DNA from: Clostridia bacterium
GTDB taxonomy: Bacteria > Bacillota > Clostridia > Oscillospirales > CAG-272
Direction: 5' to 3'
DNA length: 64,000 nucleotides
Assembly: GCA_017504405.1 (NCBI GenBank)
Contig: JAFVRG010000001.1
Span: 7,586-71,585, forward strand
Of the stretch, positions 1 through 54,789 are shown one piece after another. The translations under genes were made by a program, and so were the position numbers. Numbering within the stretch: position 1 is the first letter of the stretch; the number at the start of each line of letters is the position of its first letter. The notes under the pieces are model-generated. The model was not told where the DNA came from and ran no database searches. It saw nothing but the letters and a program-made list of their open reading frames with translations.

Positions 1-742
1 CTCCAAACGCAAATATAGGAATAAAAACAACCGTTATAACAGTCAGAATCCAGCTCGTCGATACCATAAAGGCAAACGTGCCGAGAATTGTAATAACGCT
101 GTTAATTATAGAGGTAAGGGAGTTGTTGAGCATAATATCGATATTGTCAACGTCGTTGGTATATCGGCTCATAAGCTCGCCTGTGGGGTGTGAATCAAAA
201 TAACGCACAGGGAGCTTTTGCATCTTTATAAACAAATCGTTTCTGATTTTTTCGACAGCGCCCTGCGAAACGCCGAGCATTATTCTGCTCTGCACGTATG
301 CCGTGATTACTCCCACTGCATAAATTGCGCCGAGCAGGATAATTGCGGATAACACATACGTCAGAACAGCATTTTCTACTATGCCTAAAAGCGGGTCGGT
401 AAAATTGCTGATAAGTCGGTCTGCCGCACGCTCCAGCGCACTCATTTCTATATTTGCATCGGGCTTTATCGCCAGCGTGAGCCTGTTTATAATAGGCGCA
501 AGCATATACGAGCCCAAGAGCGATGCAACGGTATTTGCCAGCATACATATAAGAACAAAAATTATTCTGCCCTTATAAGGGGAGATATAGGAGAGCATAC
601 GTCCGACGGTTTTTTTCATATTTTTAGGCTTACCGCCGCCGACAATTCCGCCGCCTCTGCCGCCCGGGCCACGCCTTACCATTGCGCCCTTGTGCGAGGT
701 GCTGTTATACTGACGCCTTAGCTGTTCGAGATTCCTTGCCAT
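1..742 (-). CDS. ABC exporter permease/ATPase subunit, 5' part only (gene continues past the window start)
   Basis: Absent from the ORF track because it runs off the window. The minus-strand ATG at 742..740 overlaps the TAA of the upstream ABC gene (TAATG). My translation is MARNLEQLRRQYNSTSHKGAMVRRGPGGRGGGIVGGGKPKNMKKTVGRMLSYISPYKGRIIFVLICMLANTVASLLGSYMLAPIINRL..., stop-free to position 1. It has a Gly/Arg-rich N-terminal extension followed by hydrophobic helices typical of a type-I ABC exporter membrane domain. Confidence 0.75.
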   Translation of the reverse strand, partial: MARNLEQLRRQYNSTSHKGAMVRRGPGGRGGGIVGGGKPKNMKKTVGRMLSYISPYKGRIIFVLICMLANTVASLLGSYMLAPIINRLTLAIKPDANIEMSALERAADRLISNFTDPLLGIVENAVLTYVLSAIILLGAIYAVGVITAYVQSRIMLGVSQGAVEKIRNDLFIKMQKLPVRYFDSHPTGELMSRYTNDVDNIDIMLNNSLTSIINSVITILGTFAFMVSTSWILTVITVVFIPIFAFG

Positions 743-2478
743 TACTTATCACCCTCCTTTTCCATCTGAGAGTAATAAATCTCGCCGTATTCGGCGTTAT
801 CCCGCATAAGCTCGTCGTGCGTACCCACGCCTGTAATTCTGCCCTCGTCCATAACTATTATCATATCCGAGTCCTTCACCGAGCTTATCCTCTGCGCGAT
901 TATTATCTTTGTGCAGTCGGACAGCTCATTCGCAAACGCCTTGCGTATTTCTGCCTCGGTTGCGGTGTCAACTGCGCTCGTCGAGTCGTCAAGAATTATT
1001 ATTTTCGGGCGTTTGAGCAGAGCACGGGCAATACATAGCCTTTGGCGCTGACCGCCCGACACGTTTGCGCCGCCCTTTTCTATCATACTGTCATAGCCGT
1101 CCCTAAACGAGGTGATAAATCCGTGCGCCTGCGCATTTTTTGCGGCGGCTTGCATTTCGCCCTCGCTTGCATTTATATCGCCCCAACGCAAATTTTCCGC
1201 AACGCTGCCCGAAAACAGCGTATTCTTCTGGAGCACCATGCTTATACCCTCCCTAAGATTGAAAAGGGAATAGTCCTTTACGTTTACGCCGTCAACGAGC
1301 ACCTCGCCGCCGCTCGCCTCGTAAAGGCGGGGTATGAGAGAAACGAGAGTGGTTTTACCCGAGCCGGTAGAGCCTATAATGCCGACGGTAGAGCCTGCCG
1401 CTATTTTGAGATTTATGTCCGACAGCACCTCGTCGTGACTGCTTTTAAAGTAGCGGAAGGACACGTCACGGAATTCAATTTCACCCTTGGCAACGCACAA
1501 ATCCTTTTGCTGTGCGTTTTCATCGGATATGTCGGGCTCCTCCTGCAAAACCTCCTTAATTCTTCTTGCCGATGCGATAGCACGTGCGGAGAACATAAGA
1601 AGGAAGGTTATCATCATAAGCGACATCAGTATCTGGTTAACGTAGGTGATAAACGCAGACAAATCGCCTATCTGCATACCGCCCTCGATAACTATATTAC
1701 CGCCAAGCCAGACAACCGCAAGAGTGGTTATATTCATAAAGAGCGTAAGAACAGGCTGCATGAATATCATAATTCTCATAGCCGCCATACCGCTTTCCTT
1801 AAGCTCGCTGTTTGCGGTTTTGAATTTCTTTTCCTCTAAATCCTCACGCACAAAGCTCTTTACAACACGTATGTTCGTAATGTTTTCTCCGACAGCGGAG
1901 TTGAGGTTGTCTATCTTTTTCTGCCTTTTTGAAAATCTGCCGAAGCCGATAAAGATTATCGAGCCTATAACCAAAAACAGCATAGGAACGGTTACCGCAA
2001 AAACAACAGACAGCGACGGATTGAGCGTTATAGCCATAATAAGGCCCGCAATCAGCATTCCCGGTGAGCGGAGCGCCATTCGCATCAGCATTGAGATAAA
2101 ATTCTGCACCTGCGTTACGTCGTTTGTGAGTCGGGTAACGAGCGAGCCTGTCGAGAACTTATCCACGTTTGCAAAGGAGAATTTTTGTATTCTCTTATAT
2201 GCGTCAGCACGCAAATCTGCGGCGTAGTTTACCGATGCCTTAGTCGCAAAATATGCGCCACCTATTCCTCCCGCCATCATTAAGACGGCGACGAGTATCA
2301 TAAGAAGCATTATACCAAGGCTTGTGCCAACGCTCAACGTGTCGTTGGCGGCGCCGTTTATCACGATAGCAAACAGTCGGGGCATAACCACCTCGCCTAT
2401 AACCTCAACTATCATACAAAGAGGCCCGATTATAAAAAACGGTATATACGGCTTTGCATATCTGAGCCACAGCTTCAT
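742..2478 (-). CDS. ABC transporter permease/ATP-binding protein (type-I exporter half-transporter, first gene of a two-gene pair)
   Basis: 578-aa ORF with an N-terminal 6-TM-like region. Walker A is GSTGSGKTT, the ABC signature is VSGGQRQR and Walker B is IIILDD. The SD GGAGGGGAG lies upstream of the ATG at 2478. Confidence 0.9.
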   Translation of the reverse strand: MKLWLRYAKPYIPFFIIGPLCMIVEVIGEVVMPRLFAIVINGAANDTLSVGTSLGIMLLMILVAVLMMAGGIGGAYFATKASVNYAADLRADAYKRIQKFSFANVDKFSTGSLVTRLTNDVTQVQNFISMLMRMALRSPGMLIAGLIMAITLNPSLSVVFAVTVPMLFLVIGSIIFIGFGRFSKRQKKIDNLNSAVGENITNIRVVKSFVREDLEEKKFKTANSELKESGMAAMRIMIFMQPVLTLFMNITTLAVVWLGGNIVIEGGMQIGDLSAFITYVNQILMSLMMITFLLMFSARAIASARRIKEVLQEEPDISDENAQQKDLCVAKGEIEFRDVSFRYFKSSHDEVLSDINLKIAAGSTVGIIGSTGSGKTTLVSLIPRLYEASGGEVLVDGVNVKDYSLFNLREGISMVLQKNTLFSGSVAENLRWGDINASEGEMQAAAKNAQAHGFITSFRDGYDSMIEKGGANVSGGQRQRLCIARALLKRPKIIILDDSTSAVDTATEAEIRKAFANELSDCTKIIIAQRISSVKDSDMIIVMDEGRITGVGTHDELMRDNAEYGEIYYSQMEKEGDK

Positions 2479-2549
2479 ATTCTCCCCTCCTTTATCCCTT
2501 ATTTAAAAGCGTATTTATAATTCCTTATTTTAGTAATTAACTAATTATT

Positions 2550-2577
2550 ATTATATTCCAACAAACACCGTTGTCAA
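2550..2577 (-). promoter_or_regulatory. SigA-type promoter of the ABC exporter operon
   Basis: Minus strand reads TTGACA (2577..2572), a 16-nt spacer, then TATAAT (2555..2550), about 70 nt upstream of the ATG at 2478. Confidence 0.5.
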
Positions 2578-2626
2578 GTTAATATTTTATGAATTTAAAC
2601 GACAGCATCAAAACGGCAAAAGAAAT

Positions 2627-2693
2627 AAAAAAAGAAGATAAGCCAATTGAGCAATAACTCAGTTGTCATTGAGAAATGACATCACTTATCTTC
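2627..2693 (-). ncRNA. Predicted small RNA, unit E (about 67 nt)
   Basis: -35 TTGACT (2728..2723), a 17-nt spacer ending in TGTGA, and -10 TATAAT (2705..2700). The outer stem is gaagataag/cttatcttc (2634-2642 with 2685-2693). It encloses tgtcatt-gaga-aatgaca (2664-2681) and is followed by T7 on the minus strand (2633..2627). Confidence 0.45.
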
Positions 2694-2729
2694 AATAATA
2701 TTATATCACAAAAAAACCAAGAAGTCAAT

Positions 2730-2795
2730 AAAAAATAAAGAAGAGCTGATGGATGCATATACGCATCTACTGTCATAAGACGAAATCAACTCTTC
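2730..2795 (-). ncRNA. Predicted small RNA, unit D (about 66 nt; promoter looks degenerate)
   Basis: -10 TATACT (2807..2802) is preceded by TATGA. The nearest TTGACT (2822..2817) is only 9 nt away, so this copy appears spacer-deleted. The stem 2740-2750 with 2785-2795 (one wobble) is followed by TTTATTTTTT on the minus strand. Confidence 0.3.
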
Positions 2796-2823
2796 ATTTA
2801 TAGTATATCATAAAAAAGTCAAT

Positions 2824-2890
2824 AAAAAAGTAAGGTTACAGCTGCGTGCTTTCCACTATACCTTGAAAATCAAGGCCGAAGTAACCTTAC
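2824..2890 (-). ncRNA. Predicted small RNA, unit C (about 67 nt)
   Basis: -35 TTGACT (2924..2919), a 16-nt spacer and -10 TATAAT (2902..2897). A 10-bp outer stem gtaaggttac/gtaaccttac (2830-2839 with 2881-2890) encloses ccttga-N4-tcaagg and is followed by T6 on the minus strand. Confidence 0.45.
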
Positions 2891-2925
2891 AAAAATATTA
2901 TACCGCAAAAAAACAAAAAGTCAAC

Positions 2926-2998
2926 AAAAAAATAAAGCCTAATCACGAGGATTAGGCATCGCTCAATCGAAAGATTGGCAGGTGTTCCTAACGGAACT
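2926..2998 (-). ncRNA. Predicted small RNA, unit B (about 73 nt)
   Basis: -35 TTGACT (3033..3028), a 17-nt spacer and -10 TACACT (3010..3005). Minus-strand hairpins are gttcc-gtta-ggaac and caatc-tttc-gattg. The terminator is gcctaatc-N5-gattaggc followed by TTTATTTTTTT. Confidence 0.45.
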
Positions 2999-3043
2999 GC
3001 ATATAGTGTACACCAATTAAATCAAAAAGTCAACACTTTACAT

Positions 3044-3116
3044 AAAAAAGGGTGGGCGGCTGAAATTCAGCCCCCACTTTAGATACTTTGTTGTATCTAG
3101 TGTCAAACAAGATGAC
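3044..3116 (-). ncRNA. Predicted small RNA, unit A (about 73 nt)
   Basis: -35 TTGACT (3150..3145), a 16-nt spacer ending in TGTGA, and -10 TATACT (3128..3123). Minus-strand hairpins are agtgtc-N9-gacact and agatac-N6-gtatct. The terminator is gtgggggctg-N6-cagccgcccac followed by T6. Confidence 0.5.
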
Positions 3117-3163
3117 ACTGTTAGTATATCACAAAAAACAAAAAAGTCAATGTAAAATTCAAC

Positions 3164-3302
3164 AAAAAGAAAACCGCCCTTTCGGACGGTTTTCAGCAAG
3201 TCTACCCACGAGCACTATGGCTCAAAAAACGCCGTTGTGAATTCTTGCTTGTGGCTTCCCCAACGCTAAGCCCTGCCTTACCTTGTAAAGCCGAACGGAC
3301 GT
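3164..3302 (-). ncRNA. Predicted structured RNA, unit F (about 139 nt, family not recognised)
   Basis: -35 TTGACA (3337..3332), a 17-nt spacer ending in TATGT, and -10 TAAAAT (3314..3309). The body contains ggctt-N10-aagcc and a possible closing helix ctcacg/cgtggg. It ends in the terminator gaaaaccgtcc-gaaa-gggcggttttc followed by TTTTT. Confidence 0.4.
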
Positions 3303-3382
3303 GAGATTATTTTAACATAGGAGGATTAAAATGTCAAGTGTTTTTGTAAAACAAAATAAAGAAAAAGTCAATATAAAACCAA

Positions 3383-3464
3383 GAAAATGAAATAAGCGGC
3401 TGATAAACAGCCGCTTCTTCGGATATTTCTATCCGGGGTCAAAAGTGTGCTTTCGCACGATGAC
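3383..3464 (-). ncRNA. Predicted small RNA, unit G (about 82 nt)
   Basis: -35 TTGACT (3498..3493), a 16-nt spacer ending in TGTGA, and -10 TATACT (3476..3471). It has a GNRA hairpin gtgc-gaaa-gcac and a cggata-gaa-atatccg hairpin. The terminator is aagcggctg-tttat-cagccgctt followed by ATTTCATTTT. Confidence 0.45.
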
Positions 3465-3585
3465 ACGGTTAGTATATCACAAAAAATTGAAAAGTCAAGG
3501 GCTGAAAACATTATTGTTTCTTTCTCTTGTTTTTTTGCTTTCTTTATTGTATAATTATTTCATAATAGCGAAAGGGGGTATTGTT

Positions 3586-5598
3586 ATGAAAAGAAAGACT
3601 GCTCTGCCCGAGCTTTTGGCTCCTGCGGGCTCGTTTGATGCCTTGGTCGCCGCAGTAAATGCGGGGGCTGATGCCGTATATTTTGGCGGCAGTGCCTTCA
3701 ATGCCCGTGCTTTCGCCAAAAACCTCGGCGTTGACGAGCTTTCGTCCGCCCTCGCCTACGCCCATATTCACGGGGTTAAGGCATATATTACCCTCAACAC
3801 GCTGATTTTTGACAAAGAGGCAGAGGATTTTATCAATTACGCAAAATTTATTGCCAATATAGGCGTTGATGCGGCAATCGTTGCGGATATGGGCGCCGTT
3901 TCGCTTCTGAGAAAATACGTGCCCGAGCTTGCCCTGCACGGCAGCACGCAAATGTCGGCGCACAGCGCTGACGGCGTAAACGAGCTTGCCACCCTCGGTC
4001 TTGACAGGGTGGTACTCGCCCGTGAGCTGTCACTTGAAAACATAAGGCTCTCAACCGAGCGCTCGGCTGCCGAAACCGAGATGTTCATTCACGGCGCTCT
4101 GTGCGTTTCACATTCGGGACAGTGCCTCTTTTCCTCGGTCGTCGGAGGACGTAGCGGAAACCGAGGAGAGTGCGCTCAGGCGTGCCGTTTGCCCTACAAC
4201 GGAAAATATCCGCTCAGCCTGCGTGATTTGTCACTATCCGACCACATAACCGAAATAATCGACAGCGGCGTTTCCTCACTCAAAATCGAGGGAAGAATGA
4301 AATCCCCCGAATACGTATACGGTGTTACCGAGATATACCGCCGCCTGCTCGACGAAAAAAGGAACGCAACAGGGGCAGAAAATCTGCGCCTTGCGGAAAT
4401 CTTTTCTCGCAGCGGCTTTACCGACGTATATTTCTGCGCAAAGCATACAGCACCTATGACGGGAGTTCGCACCGAGGACGAAAAGCGTATAAGCGGCTCG
4501 CTGTCGATAGCCGACACGGAGCAAAGGCGTGTGCCTATAACGGCAAAGGCGTATTTTTCAGAGGGCGAGCCCTCACGCCTCTCGCTTTCGCTCGGAGATA
4601 AGTCCGTGACCGTGACGGGAGACGCCCCGCAGGCGGCGCAAAATGCGCCCTTAACACACGGTGCCTTGTCAGAGCGGCTTGCAAAAACAGGCAACACCCC
4701 CTTTGTTCTTGACAAAAACGGTATAGAAATTACTCTTAACGGCAATATAAACCTCGCTCCCTCGCAGATAAATGCGCTTCGCCGCAGGGCAACCGATGCC
4801 CTGACGGAGCTGTTCTCGCCAAAGCCTGCCGAGGCTGAGAGGATAGCTGTACAGCGTATAAAATCCACTGACGTACCCTCATTTCGCTCCGCCCTGTTTT
4901 TCAACGTCGAGGTGTTTAACGGCATAAGAGGCAAGGGTTTCTTTGATTTCACATTCATTCCTCTTTTTGAGCTTGAAAATGCAAAAGAAATACCGAGCGG
5001 CGTATATATACCCCCCGTAGTGACGGATAGCGAGAGGGCTACCGTCCTCTCGGAAATGAAAAAGGCAAGGGCGGCGGGCGTCGTTTATGCCCTGTGCGGT
5101 AATATAGGGCATTTTGCCCTCGCACGTGAGTCGGGCTTGAAAATATTCGGTGATTTCCGCCTCAATATAACAAACACGCAGAGCGCAGAGCTTTACCGCT
5201 CGCTTGGCGCTGAGCATTTGATTCTCTCCCCCGAGCTGTCGCTCCCGCAATTGCGTGATATAGGCTCTGGCGCAGCCATCACCTACGGCAGAATACCCCT
5301 TATGCTCCTTGAGCGTTGCTTTATGCGTGAAAACGGCGGCTGTGACCGCTGCGGAAGGATAGAATTTACCGACAGAATGGGCGTTAAATTCCCACTTATC
5401 CGTGAATACCCCCATAGAAATATCCTTTTGAACAGCAAAATTACCTATATGGGGGACAGGCGTGATGCGCTCAAAAAATACGGTGTTTCGGGCGAGCATT
5501 TCATTTTCACAACCGAAAACGTCCGCACGGCAGAGAGCGCAGTTGAAAGCTATAAAAACGGCGAGCCGATTGACGGCGTAAGGAGGATAAAGCAATGA
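3586..5598 (+). CDS. Peptidase U32 family protein (long fused YhbU/YhbV-type form)
   Basis: ORF-track frame 3445..5598 trimmed to the ATG at 3586, which has a GAAAGGGGG SD. The N-terminus MKRKTALPELLAPAGSFDALVAAVNAGADAVYFGG and the Cys-rich segment GALCVSHSGQCLFSS...ECAQACR are characteristic of U32. A TTGTTT-N17-TGTATAAT promoter lies just upstream. Confidence 0.85.
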   Translation: MKRKTALPELLAPAGSFDALVAAVNAGADAVYFGGSAFNARAFAKNLGVDELSSALAYAHIHGVKAYITLNTLIFDKEAEDFINYAKFIANIGVDAAIVADMGAVSLLRKYVPELALHGSTQMSAHSADGVNELATLGLDRVVLARELSLENIRLSTERSAAETEMFIHGALCVSHSGQCLFSSVVGGRSGNRGECAQACRLPYNGKYPLSLRDLSLSDHITEIIDSGVSSLKIEGRMKSPEYVYGVTEIYRRLLDEKRNATGAENLRLAEIFSRSGFTDVYFCAKHTAPMTGVRTEDEKRISGSLSIADTEQRRVPITAKAYFSEGEPSRLSLSLGDKSVTVTGDAPQAAQNAPLTHGALSERLAKTGNTPFVLDKNGIEITLNGNINLAPSQINALRRRATDALTELFSPKPAEAERIAVQRIKSTDVPSFRSALFFNVEVFNGIRGKGFFDFTFIPLFELENAKEIPSGVYIPPVVTDSERATVLSEMKKARAAGVVYALCGNIGHFALARESGLKIFGDFRLNITNTQSAELYRSLGAEHLILSPELSLPQLRDIGSGAAITYGRIPLMLLERCFMRENGGCDRCGRIEFTDRMGVKFPLIREYPHRNILLNSKITYMGDRRDALKKYGVSGEHFIFTTENVRTAESAVESYKNGEPIDGVRRIKQ

Positions 5599-8733: not shown

Positions 8734-8762
8734 TTGACAGACGGCGGCTTTTATGTTACAAT
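8734..8762 (+). promoter_or_regulatory. Promoter of the 19-codon micro-ORF unit
   Basis: TTGACA (8734-8739), a 17-nt spacer ending in TATGT, and TACAAT (8757-8762). Confidence 0.45.
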
Positions 8763-8790
8763 AAAAGAACAATTAAAGGAGGTGGAGTTT

Positions 8791-8850
8791 ATGATTTTTC
8801 TAAGCTCTCTAAATCCTTTTCCGCCACTTGTGGCGTTTTCTATATATTAA
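8791..8850 (+). CDS. Candidate 19-aa hydrophobic micro-protein or leader peptide (MIFLSSLNPFPPLVAFSIY)
   Basis: The SD AAAGGAGGTG sits 6 nt upstream of the ATG at 8791. The stop at 8848-8850 abuts a terminator hairpin. The ORF is below the track's size cutoff. Confidence 0.3.
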   Translation: MIFLSSLNPFPPLVAFSIY

Positions 8851-8873
8851 GAGCGCGTATGCGCTCTTTTTTT
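8850..8873 (+). terminator. Intrinsic terminator after the micro-ORF
   Basis: agagcgc-gtat-gcgctct followed by TTTTTT. Confidence 0.55.
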
Positions 8874-8892
8874 GTATTTTTTTGGAAAAGTG

Positions 8893-54602: not shown

Positions 54603-54630
54603 TTGACAAAACCGAAATACTCTGCTATAA
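54603..54630 (+). promoter_or_regulatory. Promoter of tRNA-Thr
   Basis: TTGACA (54603-54608), a 16-nt spacer and TATAAT (54625-54630). Confidence 0.55.
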
Positions 54631-54645
54631 TAGTCGAGTAAAATT

Positions 54646-54721
<76 letters not shown>

Positions 54722-54789
54722 AAGGGTGCAGAATATTAATTCTGCACTTTTTGTTTTAATACAGCCCTGTCTTTTCTCATTTTTGCATT

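What the first reader, a model, noticed from the sequence alone, without database searches (positions are those of the whole stretch)
2627..3498. Seven head-to-tail promoter / short structured RNA / terminator cassettes fill a 0.9-kb gene-free gap
About 1 kb between the ABC-exporter operon and the U32 gene has no ORF over 60 aa. On the minus strand it resolves into seven consecutive units. Each unit has TTGACT or TTGACA (-35), a T-rich 16-17 nt spacer ending in a TRTG -16 box, and TATACT, TATAAT, TACACT or TAAAAT (-10). Then come 66-139 nt that fold on paper into 2-3 hairpins, and finally a GC-rich stem plus T-run. Six of the seven promoters have canonical spacing. Unit D has only 9 nt between the hexamers. 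All units point the same way and sit directly upstream of the ABC operon. That operon's own TTGACA-N16-TATAAT promoter follows the last terminator. The promoter boxes are near-identical while the RNA bodies share no obvious sequence. Known tandem sRNA families, such as Listeria LhrC1-4 and Vibrio Qrr, are the opposite case: they are sequence paralogues. No unit has an SD-led ORF on the transcribed strand. I cannot assign any unit to an RNA family I know. Seven strong promoters firing into terminators within 900 bp suggests a battery of abundant small RNAs. Other readings are a polymerase-loading or insulator structure, or a cassette-like locus in which different RNA modules were placed behind one promoter type.
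Basis: partly seen in the sequence, partly recalled or inferred. Interest (0 to 1): 0.85.

Follow-up and report, generated by a model that had tools for sequence, protein, structure and literature searches.

The report
Strain-variable array of small-RNA gene cassettes
A 0.9-kb gene-free gap in an uncultured gut Clostridia-type bacterium holds seven to nine back-to-back mini-genes (strong promoter, short tightly folded RNA, terminator), and closely related strains carry different sets of them at the same spot, so the locus behaves like a swappable cassette array for small RNAs of unknown function.

Summary
On the minus strand of 2622-3498 there are seven full promoter / structured body / terminator units. 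There is also one promoter-only remnant, and unit B has an internal terminator. All lie between the U32 gene and the ABC-exporter promoter. Promoter-like sites are about 4-6 times more frequent than in shuffles. Six of seven bodies fold with z-scores of -3.7 to -6.1 and unit B with -2.3. There is no SD-led ORF on the transcribed strand and no Rfam match.

The new result is comparative. Strains whose ABC gene is 93-94% identical in DNA share both flanks but carry 1, 2 or 7 cassettes, mostly with unrelated bodies. A more distant relative has 5. The 72% outgroup has none. Exchange boundaries sit at the -35 box and at the terminator T-run. Some bodies are conserved: unit D is about 94% identical against 59% at third-codon positions. 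Substitutions avoid paired bases (p = 0.03). The first helix starts 4-8 nt after the -10 box in every cassette.

The best reading is a recombination-prone array of autonomous small-RNA genes. Expression and function are untested. The promoter box itself is a generic strong Firmicute promoter. I rate this a new variant of a known kind, interest about 0.6.

The parts
3471..3498 (-). Unit A promoter (TTGACT-N16-TATACT, TGTG -16 box)
3383..3466 (-). Unit A body: three hairpins (two GAAA loops), then a terminator and T-run. It is a paralogue of unit C.
   Evidence: (z -5.9)
3343..3371 (-). Promoter-only remnant (TTGACT-N17-TACAAA) with no body. It abuts the unit B promoter.
   Evidence: (D1, D3)
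3309..3337 (-). Unit B promoter, variant type (TTGACA-N17-TAAAAT, spacer contains TCCTCCT). The same variant occurs in L024 at 2513-2541.
3224..3302 (-). Unit B1 body: a closed Y-shaped fold (ACGUCCGUU...AACGGCGU) followed by T6
3163..3223 (-). Unit B2: a second segment ending in the strongest terminator (11-bp stem, GAAA loop). It has only a weak promoter-like site (3241-3214). It is either the 3' half of a 140-nt B RNA or a cassette that lost its promoter.
3123..3150 (-). Unit C promoter (TTGACT-N16-TATACT)
3042..3118 (-). Unit C body: three consecutive hairpins including the terminator
   Evidence: (z -6.1)
3005..3033 (-). Unit D promoter (TTGACT-N17-TACACT)
2925..2998 (-). Unit D body: three hairpins. 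An orthologue lies in L024 at 3050-3122 and a paralogue at L024 3262-3330.
2897..2924 (-). Unit E promoter (TTGACT-N16-TATAAT)
2823..2890 (-). Unit E body: a 10-bp closing stem joins the 5' and 3' ends, with inner hairpins, then a T-run
   Evidence: z -3.7
2802..2822 (-). Unit F promoter with a 9-nt spacer. It keeps a TGn extended -10 (TGATATACT).
2729..2795 (-). Unit F body: an 11-bp closing stem, two inner hairpins, then a T-run
   Evidence: z -4.7
2700..2728 (-). Unit G promoter (TTGACT-N17-TATAAT)
2622..2693 (-). Unit G body: a 10-bp closing stem, two inner hairpins, then a T-run. In L123 (1775-1844) the orthologue sits behind a different promoter variant.
2550..2577 (-). The ABC operon's own promoter (TTGACA-N16-TATAAT), followed by a MarR-type operator palindrome at 2530-2544. 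This is the conserved right flank of the array and is not a cassette.

Best explanation
The gap is an array of autonomous small-RNA genes.

**How each cassette works.**
- Each cassette has a near-consensus sigma-A promoter: a -35 TTGACT box, a T-rich 16-17 nt spacer with a TRTG -16 box, and a -10 TATAAT-like box.
- After a 6-7 nt AT-rich discriminator, transcription starts at a purine that is already the first base of a helix.
- The 60-140 nt RNA takes one of two forms. One form is three consecutive hairpins. The other is a closed Y shape whose 5' and 3' ends pair in a 7-11 bp stem.
- The last stem plus U-run terminates transcription.
- The T-run abuts the next -35 box, where it may act as an UP-like A/T tract.
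- RNAs with both ends sequestered should be long-lived and abundant. This step is inferred.

**How the array evolves.** Whole cassettes are gained, lost, duplicated and replaced. Crossover points lie in the shared -35/T-rich box and in the terminator T-run. As a result, closely related strains carry different sets. This step is shown.

**What the RNAs do.** This is not shown. The most likely role is trans-acting structured RNAs, either protein-binding decoys or loop-pairing regulators. The compact folds, the GNRA/UUCG loops and the sequence-level conservation of some bodies point that way.
For: **Promoters and terminators.** Their density and co-orientation are far above shuffles.

**Folding.** Bodies fold with z-scores of -2.3 to -6.1. 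Most relatives' cassettes give z of -2.2 to -4.4, and two give about -1.3.

**Phase.** The first helix begins 4-8 nt after the -10 hexamer in all 19 cassettes read. This ties each promoter to its RNA.

**No coding or known RNA.** There are no SD-led ORFs on the transcribed strand. No Rfam family matches at gathering score or at E <= 10.

**Cassette turnover.**
- The window has 7-8 cassettes. L014, L121, L124 and L125 have 1 cassette (X). L021-23 have 2. L123 has 1, an orthologue of G, plus MarR. L024 has 5.
- The ABC gene is 93-94% identical in DNA to the window for L014 and L022. L121 and L123-L125 belong to the same protein cluster, at 90% or more identity.
- Flanks are 92-97% identical up to TTGACT on the left and from the T-run on the right.
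- The outgroup L111 (ABC protein 72% identical) has no cassette.

**Constraint on bodies.**
- The unit D body is 58/62 identical between the window and L024. The ABC gene is 82% identical overall and 59% at third-codon positions.
- The D promoter spacer is less conserved than the D body.
- In the D / D-orthologue / D' alignment, 8 predicted pairs change on both sides and stay paired.
- Across four orthologous cassette pairs, substitutions hit 8/170 paired against 10/78 unpaired positions (Fisher p = 0.033).

**Singletons elsewhere.** A single cassette of the same build is conserved at the same intergenic slot in two 30%-GC contigs whose neighbouring protein is 79% identical (L074, L126).
Against: **No expression data.** No transcript has been seen.

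**Generic promoter.** The promoter box is found before ordinary genes in 80+ metagenome contigs. It carries no specific information.

**No function evidence.**
- No target complementarity of 14 nt or more to an mRNA was found in the 64-kb window.
- No shared motif was seen among the bodies.

**Narrow distribution.** The array is confined to one narrow clade and one locus in everything I could search.

**Copy number.** It varies from 1 to 7-8, so no individual cassette is essential.

**Alternative for unit D.** The high conservation of D could reflect recent transfer rather than selection.

**Small numbers.** The covariation evidence rests on 2-3 sequences per family, and 3 of 7 changed pairs in orthologue comparisons are broken.
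Confidence: 0.55

Rival explanations
1. A cis-acting promoter/terminator stack. On this reading the units matter only as DNA or transcription elements. They would insulate the divergent U32 and ABC promoters, set local supercoiling, load or sink RNA polymerase, or add read-through transcription into the ABC operon. The bodies would be nothing more than elaborate terminators.
For: - All units are co-oriented with the ABC operon and sit directly upstream of its promoter in every haplotype.
- The bodies share no common motif, as expected if only folding matters.
- Each T-run abuts the next -35 box.
Against: - Strains with 93-94% identical ABC genes have 1, 2 or 7 units with the same ABC promoter, and the outgroup has none. 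So the stack is dispensable for the operon.
- The last terminator is strong: a 10-bp stem plus U7.
- The unit D body is conserved in sequence, loops included, well above neutral and above its own promoter spacer.
- Singleton cassettes of the same build sit in unrelated contexts (L074, L126).
Confidence: 0.15
2. Neutral or selfish repeat debris. A recombination-prone promoter-terminator module (MITE-like, or produced by unequal crossing-over) has expanded and decayed at a tolerant intergenic site. The RNAs, if made, would have no function.
For: - Copy number varies widely.
- There is a promoter-only remnant (3371-3343), a promoter with a 9-nt spacer, and a possibly promoter-less B2 segment.
- The structure is mosaic: identical closing stems with different interiors in L022-2 against L024-1.
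- Distribution is restricted to one clade.
Against: - The cassettes have no common terminal inverted repeats or target-site duplications.
- No dispersed copies were found in the 64-kb window or in about 150 kb of related contigs.
- Folding z-scores are well beyond those of a lone terminator.
- Stems are preserved and substitutions are biased to unpaired bases.
- D is conserved across 41% third-position divergence.
- The singleton is conserved between L074 and L126.
Confidence: 0.15
3. Unrecognised structured-RNA classes (ribozymes or aptamers). Clusters of different small self-cleaving ribozymes occur near each other in Clostridia, and the Y-shaped three-way junctions here would be new catalytic or ligand-binding folds. 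This is a sub-case of the RNA reading, not a true alternative to it.
For: - There are several compact three-way junctions of 55-65 nt with GNRA loops.
- Tandem arrangement of unrelated small structured RNAs has a precedent in ribozyme-rich neighbourhoods. This is my own knowledge of the hammerhead/twister/RAGATH literature and was not checked here.
Against: - No hammerhead, twister, twister-sister, pistol, hatchet or RAGATH hit appears even at E <= 10 on either strand.
- By my own reading, the hammerhead core (CUGAUGA...GAAA) is absent from the junctions of units E and F.
- The junction sequences share nothing with each other.
- Each unit has its own promoter and terminator, unlike the known ribozyme clusters.
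Confidence: 0.07
4. A DNA-level recombination array, integron/attC-like or otherwise site-specific. The hairpins would be recombination sites, and the 'promoter' box would be the core site.
For: - Exchange boundaries fall precisely at the TTGACT box and at the T-run.
- The imperfect hairpins of 60-140 nt fall within the attC size range.
Against: - By my own reading of the stem sequences, there are no RYYYAAC / GTTRRRY core sites at the stem ends.
- There are no ORFs in the cassettes.
- No integrase or other recombinase appears among the genes within about 8 kb on the U32 side or among the four called genes past the ABC pair on the other side (Pfam labels).
- The stems differ completely between cassettes.
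Confidence: 0.04

Closest known systems
Tandem multicopy sRNA loci (Listeria LhrC1-4, Vibrio Qrr, Pseudomonas PrrF/RsmX)
   Same: Several short non-coding genes lie head to tail. Each has its own promoter and intrinsic terminator, and there are no ORFs.
   Different: Those copies are sequence paralogues with a shared seed or binding motif and a shared regulator site. Here most bodies are unrelated; only A/C and D/D' are paralogous. The shared part is a generic sigma-A promoter, and the cassette content differs between near-identical strains.
Integron cassette arrays / CALINs
   Same: A co-oriented array of exchangeable modules lies between conserved flanks. Content is strain-specific, and each module has a folded 60-140 nt element.
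   Different: There are no attC core sites and no integrase nearby. The cassettes carry promoters and no ORFs, which is the reverse of integron cassettes.
CRISPR arrays
   Same: A conserved element of about 30-45 nt alternates with variable segments. The locus is hypervariable between strains, and assemblies break inside it.
   Different: The 'repeat' is a promoter plus T-run and is only about 75-90% identical. The variable segments are 60-140 nt, of unequal length, and internally base-paired. No cas genes appear among the genes called within about 8 kb. No protospacer-like matches were found in phage or plasmid collections.
Type I toxin-antitoxin repeat loci (E. coli Ldr/Rdl, Sib/Ibs; H. pylori AapA/IsoA)
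   Same: Tandem small transcription units with strong promoters and terminators in an intergenic region.
   Different: Those need an SD-led hydrophobic toxin ORF opposite or overlapping the sRNA. Here the only SD-led ORF (plus strand, 3331-3390) is Lys-rich, its tail is not conserved, and six units have none.
Promoter islands of horizontally acquired DNA in E. coli
   Same: An AT-rich stretch with an unusual density of promoter-like sites.
   Different: Promoter islands have overlapping, disordered sites on both strands. Here the sites are evenly spaced and co-oriented, and each is phased with a structured body and a terminator.

Membership tests
Any curated RNA family (Rfam 15) | Covariance-model match at or above the family's gathering score | tested here: not met
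   In the window only a tRNA at 54646 reaches gathering score. In 2450-3650 and in L024 2300-3450 the best hits are chance-level and far below their cut-offs: E values of 2-9 in the window and 0.004-0.7 in L024.
Generic bacterial intergenic sRNA gene | Own sigma-70-type promoter, no ORF, intrinsic terminator | tested here: met
   The first helix is phased 4-8 nt after the -10 box in all cassettes read.
Generic bacterial intergenic sRNA gene | A discrete transcript is detected | not testable with these tools
   No transcriptome data were available.
Generic bacterial intergenic sRNA gene | Conservation or covariation above the neutral expectation | tested here: inconclusive
   D is 58/62 identical against 59% third-position identity. 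Eight pairs change on both sides and stay paired in the D family. Substitutions are biased to unpaired bases, p = 0.033. There are only 2-3 sequences per family.
Paralogous tandem sRNA family (LhrC/Qrr type) | Copies are sequence paralogues that share a seed or motif | tested here: not met
   Only A/C align. The other bodies have no mutual similarity beyond the promoter and T-run.
Integron / attC array | attC sites with RYYYAAC...GTTRRRY cores, cassette ORFs, and IntI nearby | tested here: not met
   By my reading of the sequences, the stems differ in every unit and lack the cores. There are no ORFs. No recombinase appears among the neighbouring genes.
CRISPR array | Near-identical 23-47 nt repeats, unstructured spacers of constant length, and cas genes or protospacer matches | tested here: not met
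   The repeat families are 61-88% identical and are promoters. The 'spacers' are 60-140 nt and folded. There are no phage or plasmid matches apart from promoter-like or short low-identity stretches.
Type I toxin-antitoxin repeats | An SD-led small hydrophobic toxin ORF paired with an antisense RNA | tested here: not met
   One search finds a single 19-aa Lys-rich plus-strand ORF under the B promoter. Its tail is not conserved in L024.
Self-cleaving ribozyme clusters (hammerhead, twister, twister-sister, pistol, hatchet) | Conserved catalytic cores, i.e. Rfam models | tested here: not met
   There are no hits at E <= 10 on either strand. By my own reading, the hammerhead core is absent from the junctions of units E and F.
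MITE / REP-type dispersed repeat | Common terminal inverted repeats, target-site duplication, and many dispersed copies | tested here: inconclusive
   The closing stems differ in every unit. No other copy was found in the 64-kb window or in the related contigs held. The whole genome could not be scanned.

The most novel reading that the evidence does not exclude
The locus is a dedicated exchange platform for small-RNA genes. It would be a functional analogue of an integron or a CRISPR array, in which promoter-body-terminator modules are shuffled, imported and lost by recombination at the shared promoter/T-run junctions. The repertoire would be kept diverse by frequency-dependent selection, for example RNAs that decoy or block phage, mobile-element or competitor factors.
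Probability: 0.12. Interest if true: 0.85.

Novelty: new variant of a known kind. Interest (0 to 1): 0.6.

Why it matters
Clusters of small-RNA genes are known, but they consist of paralogues. An array of mostly unrelated structured RNAs, each with the same strong promoter and each replaceable between strains that differ by only a few percent, would be a new mode of small-RNA gene organisation and turnover. It would point to an unstudied layer of strain-level variation in gut or rumen Clostridia.

It also offers a compact natural set of promoter / stable-RNA / terminator modules. Their 5' and 3' ends are both sequestered, which is of practical interest for RNA expression design. If the RNAs turn out not to exist or not to matter, the locus is still a clear example of how shared promoter and terminator sequences drive rapid intergenic rearrangement.

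Tried and rejected
**Rfam.** Searches at gathering score and at E <= 10 on the window and on L024 found nothing.

**Strict promoter box as a probe.**
- In IMG/VR it gave 2 hits, both ordinary phage gene promoters.
- In JGI metagenomes it gave 84 hits. Nearly all are promoters of protein genes, tRNAs or riboswitch leaders, and only L074 is a cassette. The box is therefore generic and useless as a family marker.

**Other viral scans.** A T-run-plus-promoter junction pattern and the unit D hairpin both returned only irrelevant coding matches.

**blastn against phages and plasmids.** The window array, the L024 array and L074 gave only a promoter-like match in a microvirus and a weak Bacillus phage hit. 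A spacer-like origin for the bodies is therefore not supported.

**Antisense target search in the window.** One 14-mer from unit D matched the non-coding strand of a gene, which is chance level.

**Plus-strand 19-aa ORF under the B promoter.** I considered it as a type I toxin and rejected it. It is Lys-rich, has no convincing promoter, and is not conserved beyond residues forced by the -35 box.

**Pfam and PHROGs.** Searches on the proteins flanking the L074 cassette and on the small ORF inside the L024 array found no families.

**Hammerhead or twister identity of the Y-shaped bodies.** By my reading the hammerhead core is absent from units E and F. Rfam gave no hammerhead, twister, twister-sister, pistol or hatchet hit on either strand.

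**Similarity between cassette X and the L074 cassette.** It is limited to the promoter, GAATT and the T-tail. I do not take it as evidence of transfer.

**Literature searches.** Searches for comparable arrays returned nothing relevant.
Full report
**1. What is in the sequence**

The gap between the ABC exporter gene (742-2478, minus strand; ABC_membrane + ABC_tran) and the U32 peptidase gene (ATG at 3586, plus strand) is 1107 nt.

The units, with exact coordinates:

| Unit | Promoter | Body | Notes |
|---|---|---|---|
| A | 3498-3471 | 3466-3383 | |
| remnant | 3371-3343 | none | TTGACT-N17-TACAAA, no body |
| B | 3337-3309 | 3302-3163 | TTGACA...TAAAAT, spacer contains TCCTCCT; internal closing stem plus T6 ends at 3224 |
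| C | 3150-3123 | 3118-3042 | |
| D | 3033-3005 | 2998-2925 | |
| E | 2924-2897 | 2890-2823 | |
| F | 2822-2802 | 2795-2729 | 9-nt spacer, TGn extended -10 retained |
| G | 2728-2700 | 2693-2622 | |

The operon's own TTGACA-N16-TATAAT promoter follows at 2577-2550.

**2. Is it more than chance?**

- The consensus scan finds 16 promoter-like sites in 2300-3800, against 4.2 +/- 2.3 in dinucleotide shuffles. The best ones are all on the minus strand.
- TTGACT-N15-18-TANNNT occurs 12 times in 64 kb against 2.0 +/- 1.3 expected. Six of the 12 matches (five distinct promoters) are in this gap.
- Every body folds better than its shuffles, with z = -5.9, -2.3, -6.1, -4.6, -3.7, -4.7 and -5.1.
- A custom scan for promoter, folded body and T-run finds such units nowhere else in the window. 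The only other hits are a tRNA gene, a 19-codon mini-gene, one further promoter-plus-hairpin hit at 48197-47986 that starts a coding region, and the ABC promoter itself.
- No SD-led ORF exists on the transcribed strand.
- The sequence is 100% identical in six other contigs carrying this haplotype, from five samples, so it is not an assembly artefact.

**3. Two architectures and a phase rule**

- Units A, C and D are three consecutive hairpins, the last one being the terminator.
- Units E, F, G and B1 are closed Y shapes. A 7-11 bp stem pairs the very 5' end with the 3' end. Two small hairpins sit inside, and the U-run follows.
- Loops are often GNRA or UUCG.
- In all 19 cassettes read, here and in relatives, 4-8 nt (mostly 6-7, AT-rich) separate the -10 hexamer from the first base of the first helix. 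That base is a purine at the predicted +1.
- Each T-run directly abuts the next -35 box.
- This phasing is what one expects of real transcription units that make RNAs with protected 5' and 3' ends. Chance promoters or purely DNA-level hairpins would not show it. That the RNAs are made and are stable remains an inference.

**4. Known families**

Rfam gives nothing for the region at gathering score, and only chance-level hits at E <= 10 on either strand. The same holds for the array of the relative L024. No hammerhead, twister, pistol, hatchet, riboswitch or sRNA family is involved.

**5. The promoter box is generic**

- An exact-pattern scan with the box found 2 viral and 84 metagenome loci. 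Almost all are ordinary promoters of protein genes, tRNAs or riboswitch leaders in diverse Firmicutes.
- The box is simply a strong sigma-A promoter with a T-rich spacer and a -16 TRTG.
- One hit, L074 704-800, is a single cassette of the same build. It lies antisense between two genes in a 30%-GC contig.
- A contig whose neighbouring protein is 79% identical (L126) carries the orthologous cassette in the same slot, with the fold retained.
- So single cassettes of this type exist and are conserved outside the array clade.

**6. The comparative result**

Contigs encoding close relatives of the flanking proteins show the same locus with different contents.

| Haplotype | Loci | Cassette content |
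|---|---|---|
| H1 | window | A to G |
| H2 | L014-L018, L124, L125; variant L121 | one cassette X with an unrelated body |
| H3 | L021-L023 | two cassettes with unrelated bodies |
| H4 | L123 (GCA_045542615) | one cassette, the orthologue of G behind a D-type promoter variant; MarR gene before the ABC genes |
| H5 | L024 (GCA_045593885) | five cassettes upstream of MarR-ABC: a D orthologue, a D paralogue, an E-like unit sharing one hairpin with a compensated G/C change, a B-type promoter with a different body, and a unit whose closing stem equals that of an H3 cassette while its interior differs |
| Outgroup | L111 (ABC protein 72% identical) | U32-MarR-ABC with a 247-nt gap and no cassette |

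- The ABC gene is 94% identical in DNA to the window for L014 and 93% for L022. For L024 it is 82% overall and 59% at third-codon positions.
- More distant relatives also have no cassette.
- Pairwise blast shows that the haplotypes share the right flank at 92-95% identity, from the last T-run onward. H1 and H3 also share the left flank at 97%, up to TTGACT. H2 differs in most of the U32-proximal flank. In between, the haplotypes share only promoter boxes.
- Cassette content therefore turns over much faster than point substitution. The breakpoints lie in the shared -35/T-rich box and in the terminator T-run. Promoter variants and bodies recombine independently.

**7. Are the bodies constrained?**

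- The unit D body is 58/62 identical between the window and L024, even though third-codon identity in the adjacent gene is 59%. All D stems are kept, and the D promoter spacer is less conserved than the body.
- In the D / D-orthologue / D' alignment, eight predicted pairs change on both sides and stay paired.
- Across four orthologous pairs (D, G, X and the L074/L126 singleton), substitutions hit 8 of 170 paired positions against 10 of 78 unpaired positions (Fisher p = 0.033). Four changed pairs are kept and three are broken.
- This is modest but consistent evidence for selection on the RNA, or at least on the folded sequence. Recent transfer of the D-E segment is an alternative for the D result.

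**8. What I could not find**

- No 14-nt or longer antisense match to an mRNA in the window.
- No matches of the bodies to phage or plasmid collections.
- No informative Pfam or PHROG families for proteins next to L074 or for the small reverse ORF inside the L024 array.
- No recombinase, reverse transcriptase or cas gene among the genes within about 8 kb on the U32 side, or among the four called genes past the ABC pair on the other side.
- No comparable array in two literature searches.

**9. Interpretation**

The best-supported reading (about 0.55) is an array of autonomous small-RNA genes that evolves by cassette gain, loss, duplication and replacement at shared promoter/terminator junctions.

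What is shown:
- the anatomy;
- the phase rule;
- the strain-level cassette polymorphism with defined boundaries;
- above-neutral conservation of some bodies.

What is inferred:
- transcription;
- RNA stability and abundance;
- any trans-acting role, whether as a protein decoy or a loop-pairing regulator.

The rivals are:
- a purely cis-acting promoter/terminator stack (about 0.15);
- neutral or selfish repeat debris (about 0.15);
- new ribozyme or aptamer classes (about 0.07, a sub-case of the RNA reading);
- a DNA recombination-site array (about 0.04).

**10. Comparison and novelty**

The locus works most like a tandem sRNA locus, but it fails the defining feature of those families, which is paralogous copies with a shared motif. 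It looks like an integron or CRISPR array in population behaviour but meets none of their defining features.

I file it as a new variant of a known kind, namely clustered sRNA genes. The novelty lies in the heterologous bodies behind one promoter type and in the cassette-like hypervariability. Interest is tempered by the absence of expression data, the narrow distribution (one locus in one uncultured clade) and the unknown function.

Noticed in passing
window 2530-2577; compare L123 1968-2504, L024 3465-4004, L111 2974-3501, L019 2-304: Relatives have a MarR-family gene between this promoter and the ABC genes. The window, L014 and L022 lineages lack it, yet they keep the promoter and the operator-like palindrome TTAGTTAATTACTAA. 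The exporter operon may therefore be derepressed, or controlled by a MarR encoded elsewhere.
   Followed up: partly
window 8734-8875 (+); L001 11324-11461: A mini-gene with its own TTGACA-N17-TACAAT promoter, a strong SD, a 19-codon ORF (8792-8851, MIFLSSLNPFPPLVAFSIY) and its own terminator. The peptide C-terminus (SLNPFPPLVAFSIY) is conserved in the relative whose U32 is 72% identical. It lies upstream of a beta-helix (pectate-lyase-like) gene.
   Followed up: partly
window 3331-3390 (+); L024 about 2470-2535 (reverse strand): The reverse complement of the B-type promoter reads AGGAGG-N6-8-ATG. In the window it opens a 19-aa Lys-rich ORF (MSSVFVKQNKEKVNIKPRK). The SD and the first residues recur in L024 but the rest differs, so it is probably a by-product of the -35 box and the TCCTCCT spacer.
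   Followed up: partly
L074 704-800 (+); L126 3969-3870 (-): A conserved single promoter / Y-shaped RNA / terminator cassette lies antisense in the gap between two co-directional genes of a widespread protein family of about 110-140 aa with no Pfam match (197 clusters). The contigs are 30% GC and of unknown origin.
   Followed up: partly
L024 1619-2400; L001 6001-8097: In the MAG GCA_045593885 the U32 coding region is not next to the array; it sits on another contig. Part of the U32 upstream sequence is nevertheless retained beside an unrelated 220-aa gene, which indicates a rearrangement at this locus.
   Followed up: no
L024 2789-2989 (-): A 66-aa basic ORF (MPRMSKLERSQRAHERLADYHEKKGK...) on the opposite strand interrupts the cassette array of the relative. 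It has no Pfam or PHROG match.
   Followed up: partly
L040, L044, L071, L100, L105 (metagenome loci): The same strong promoter occurs twice, about 616-625 nt apart. Each time it is followed by a conserved leader of about 170 nt rich in the repeats ttcagtttcgaaaa / gctttcgaagctgaaag. This may be an unannotated structured leader or a repeated element.
   Followed up: no
window 54603-54747 (+): A single tRNA gene (Rfam 70 bits, 54646-54718) has its own TTGACA-N17-TATAAT promoter and terminator. It is the only other compact promoter / RNA / terminator unit in the window.
   Followed up: no
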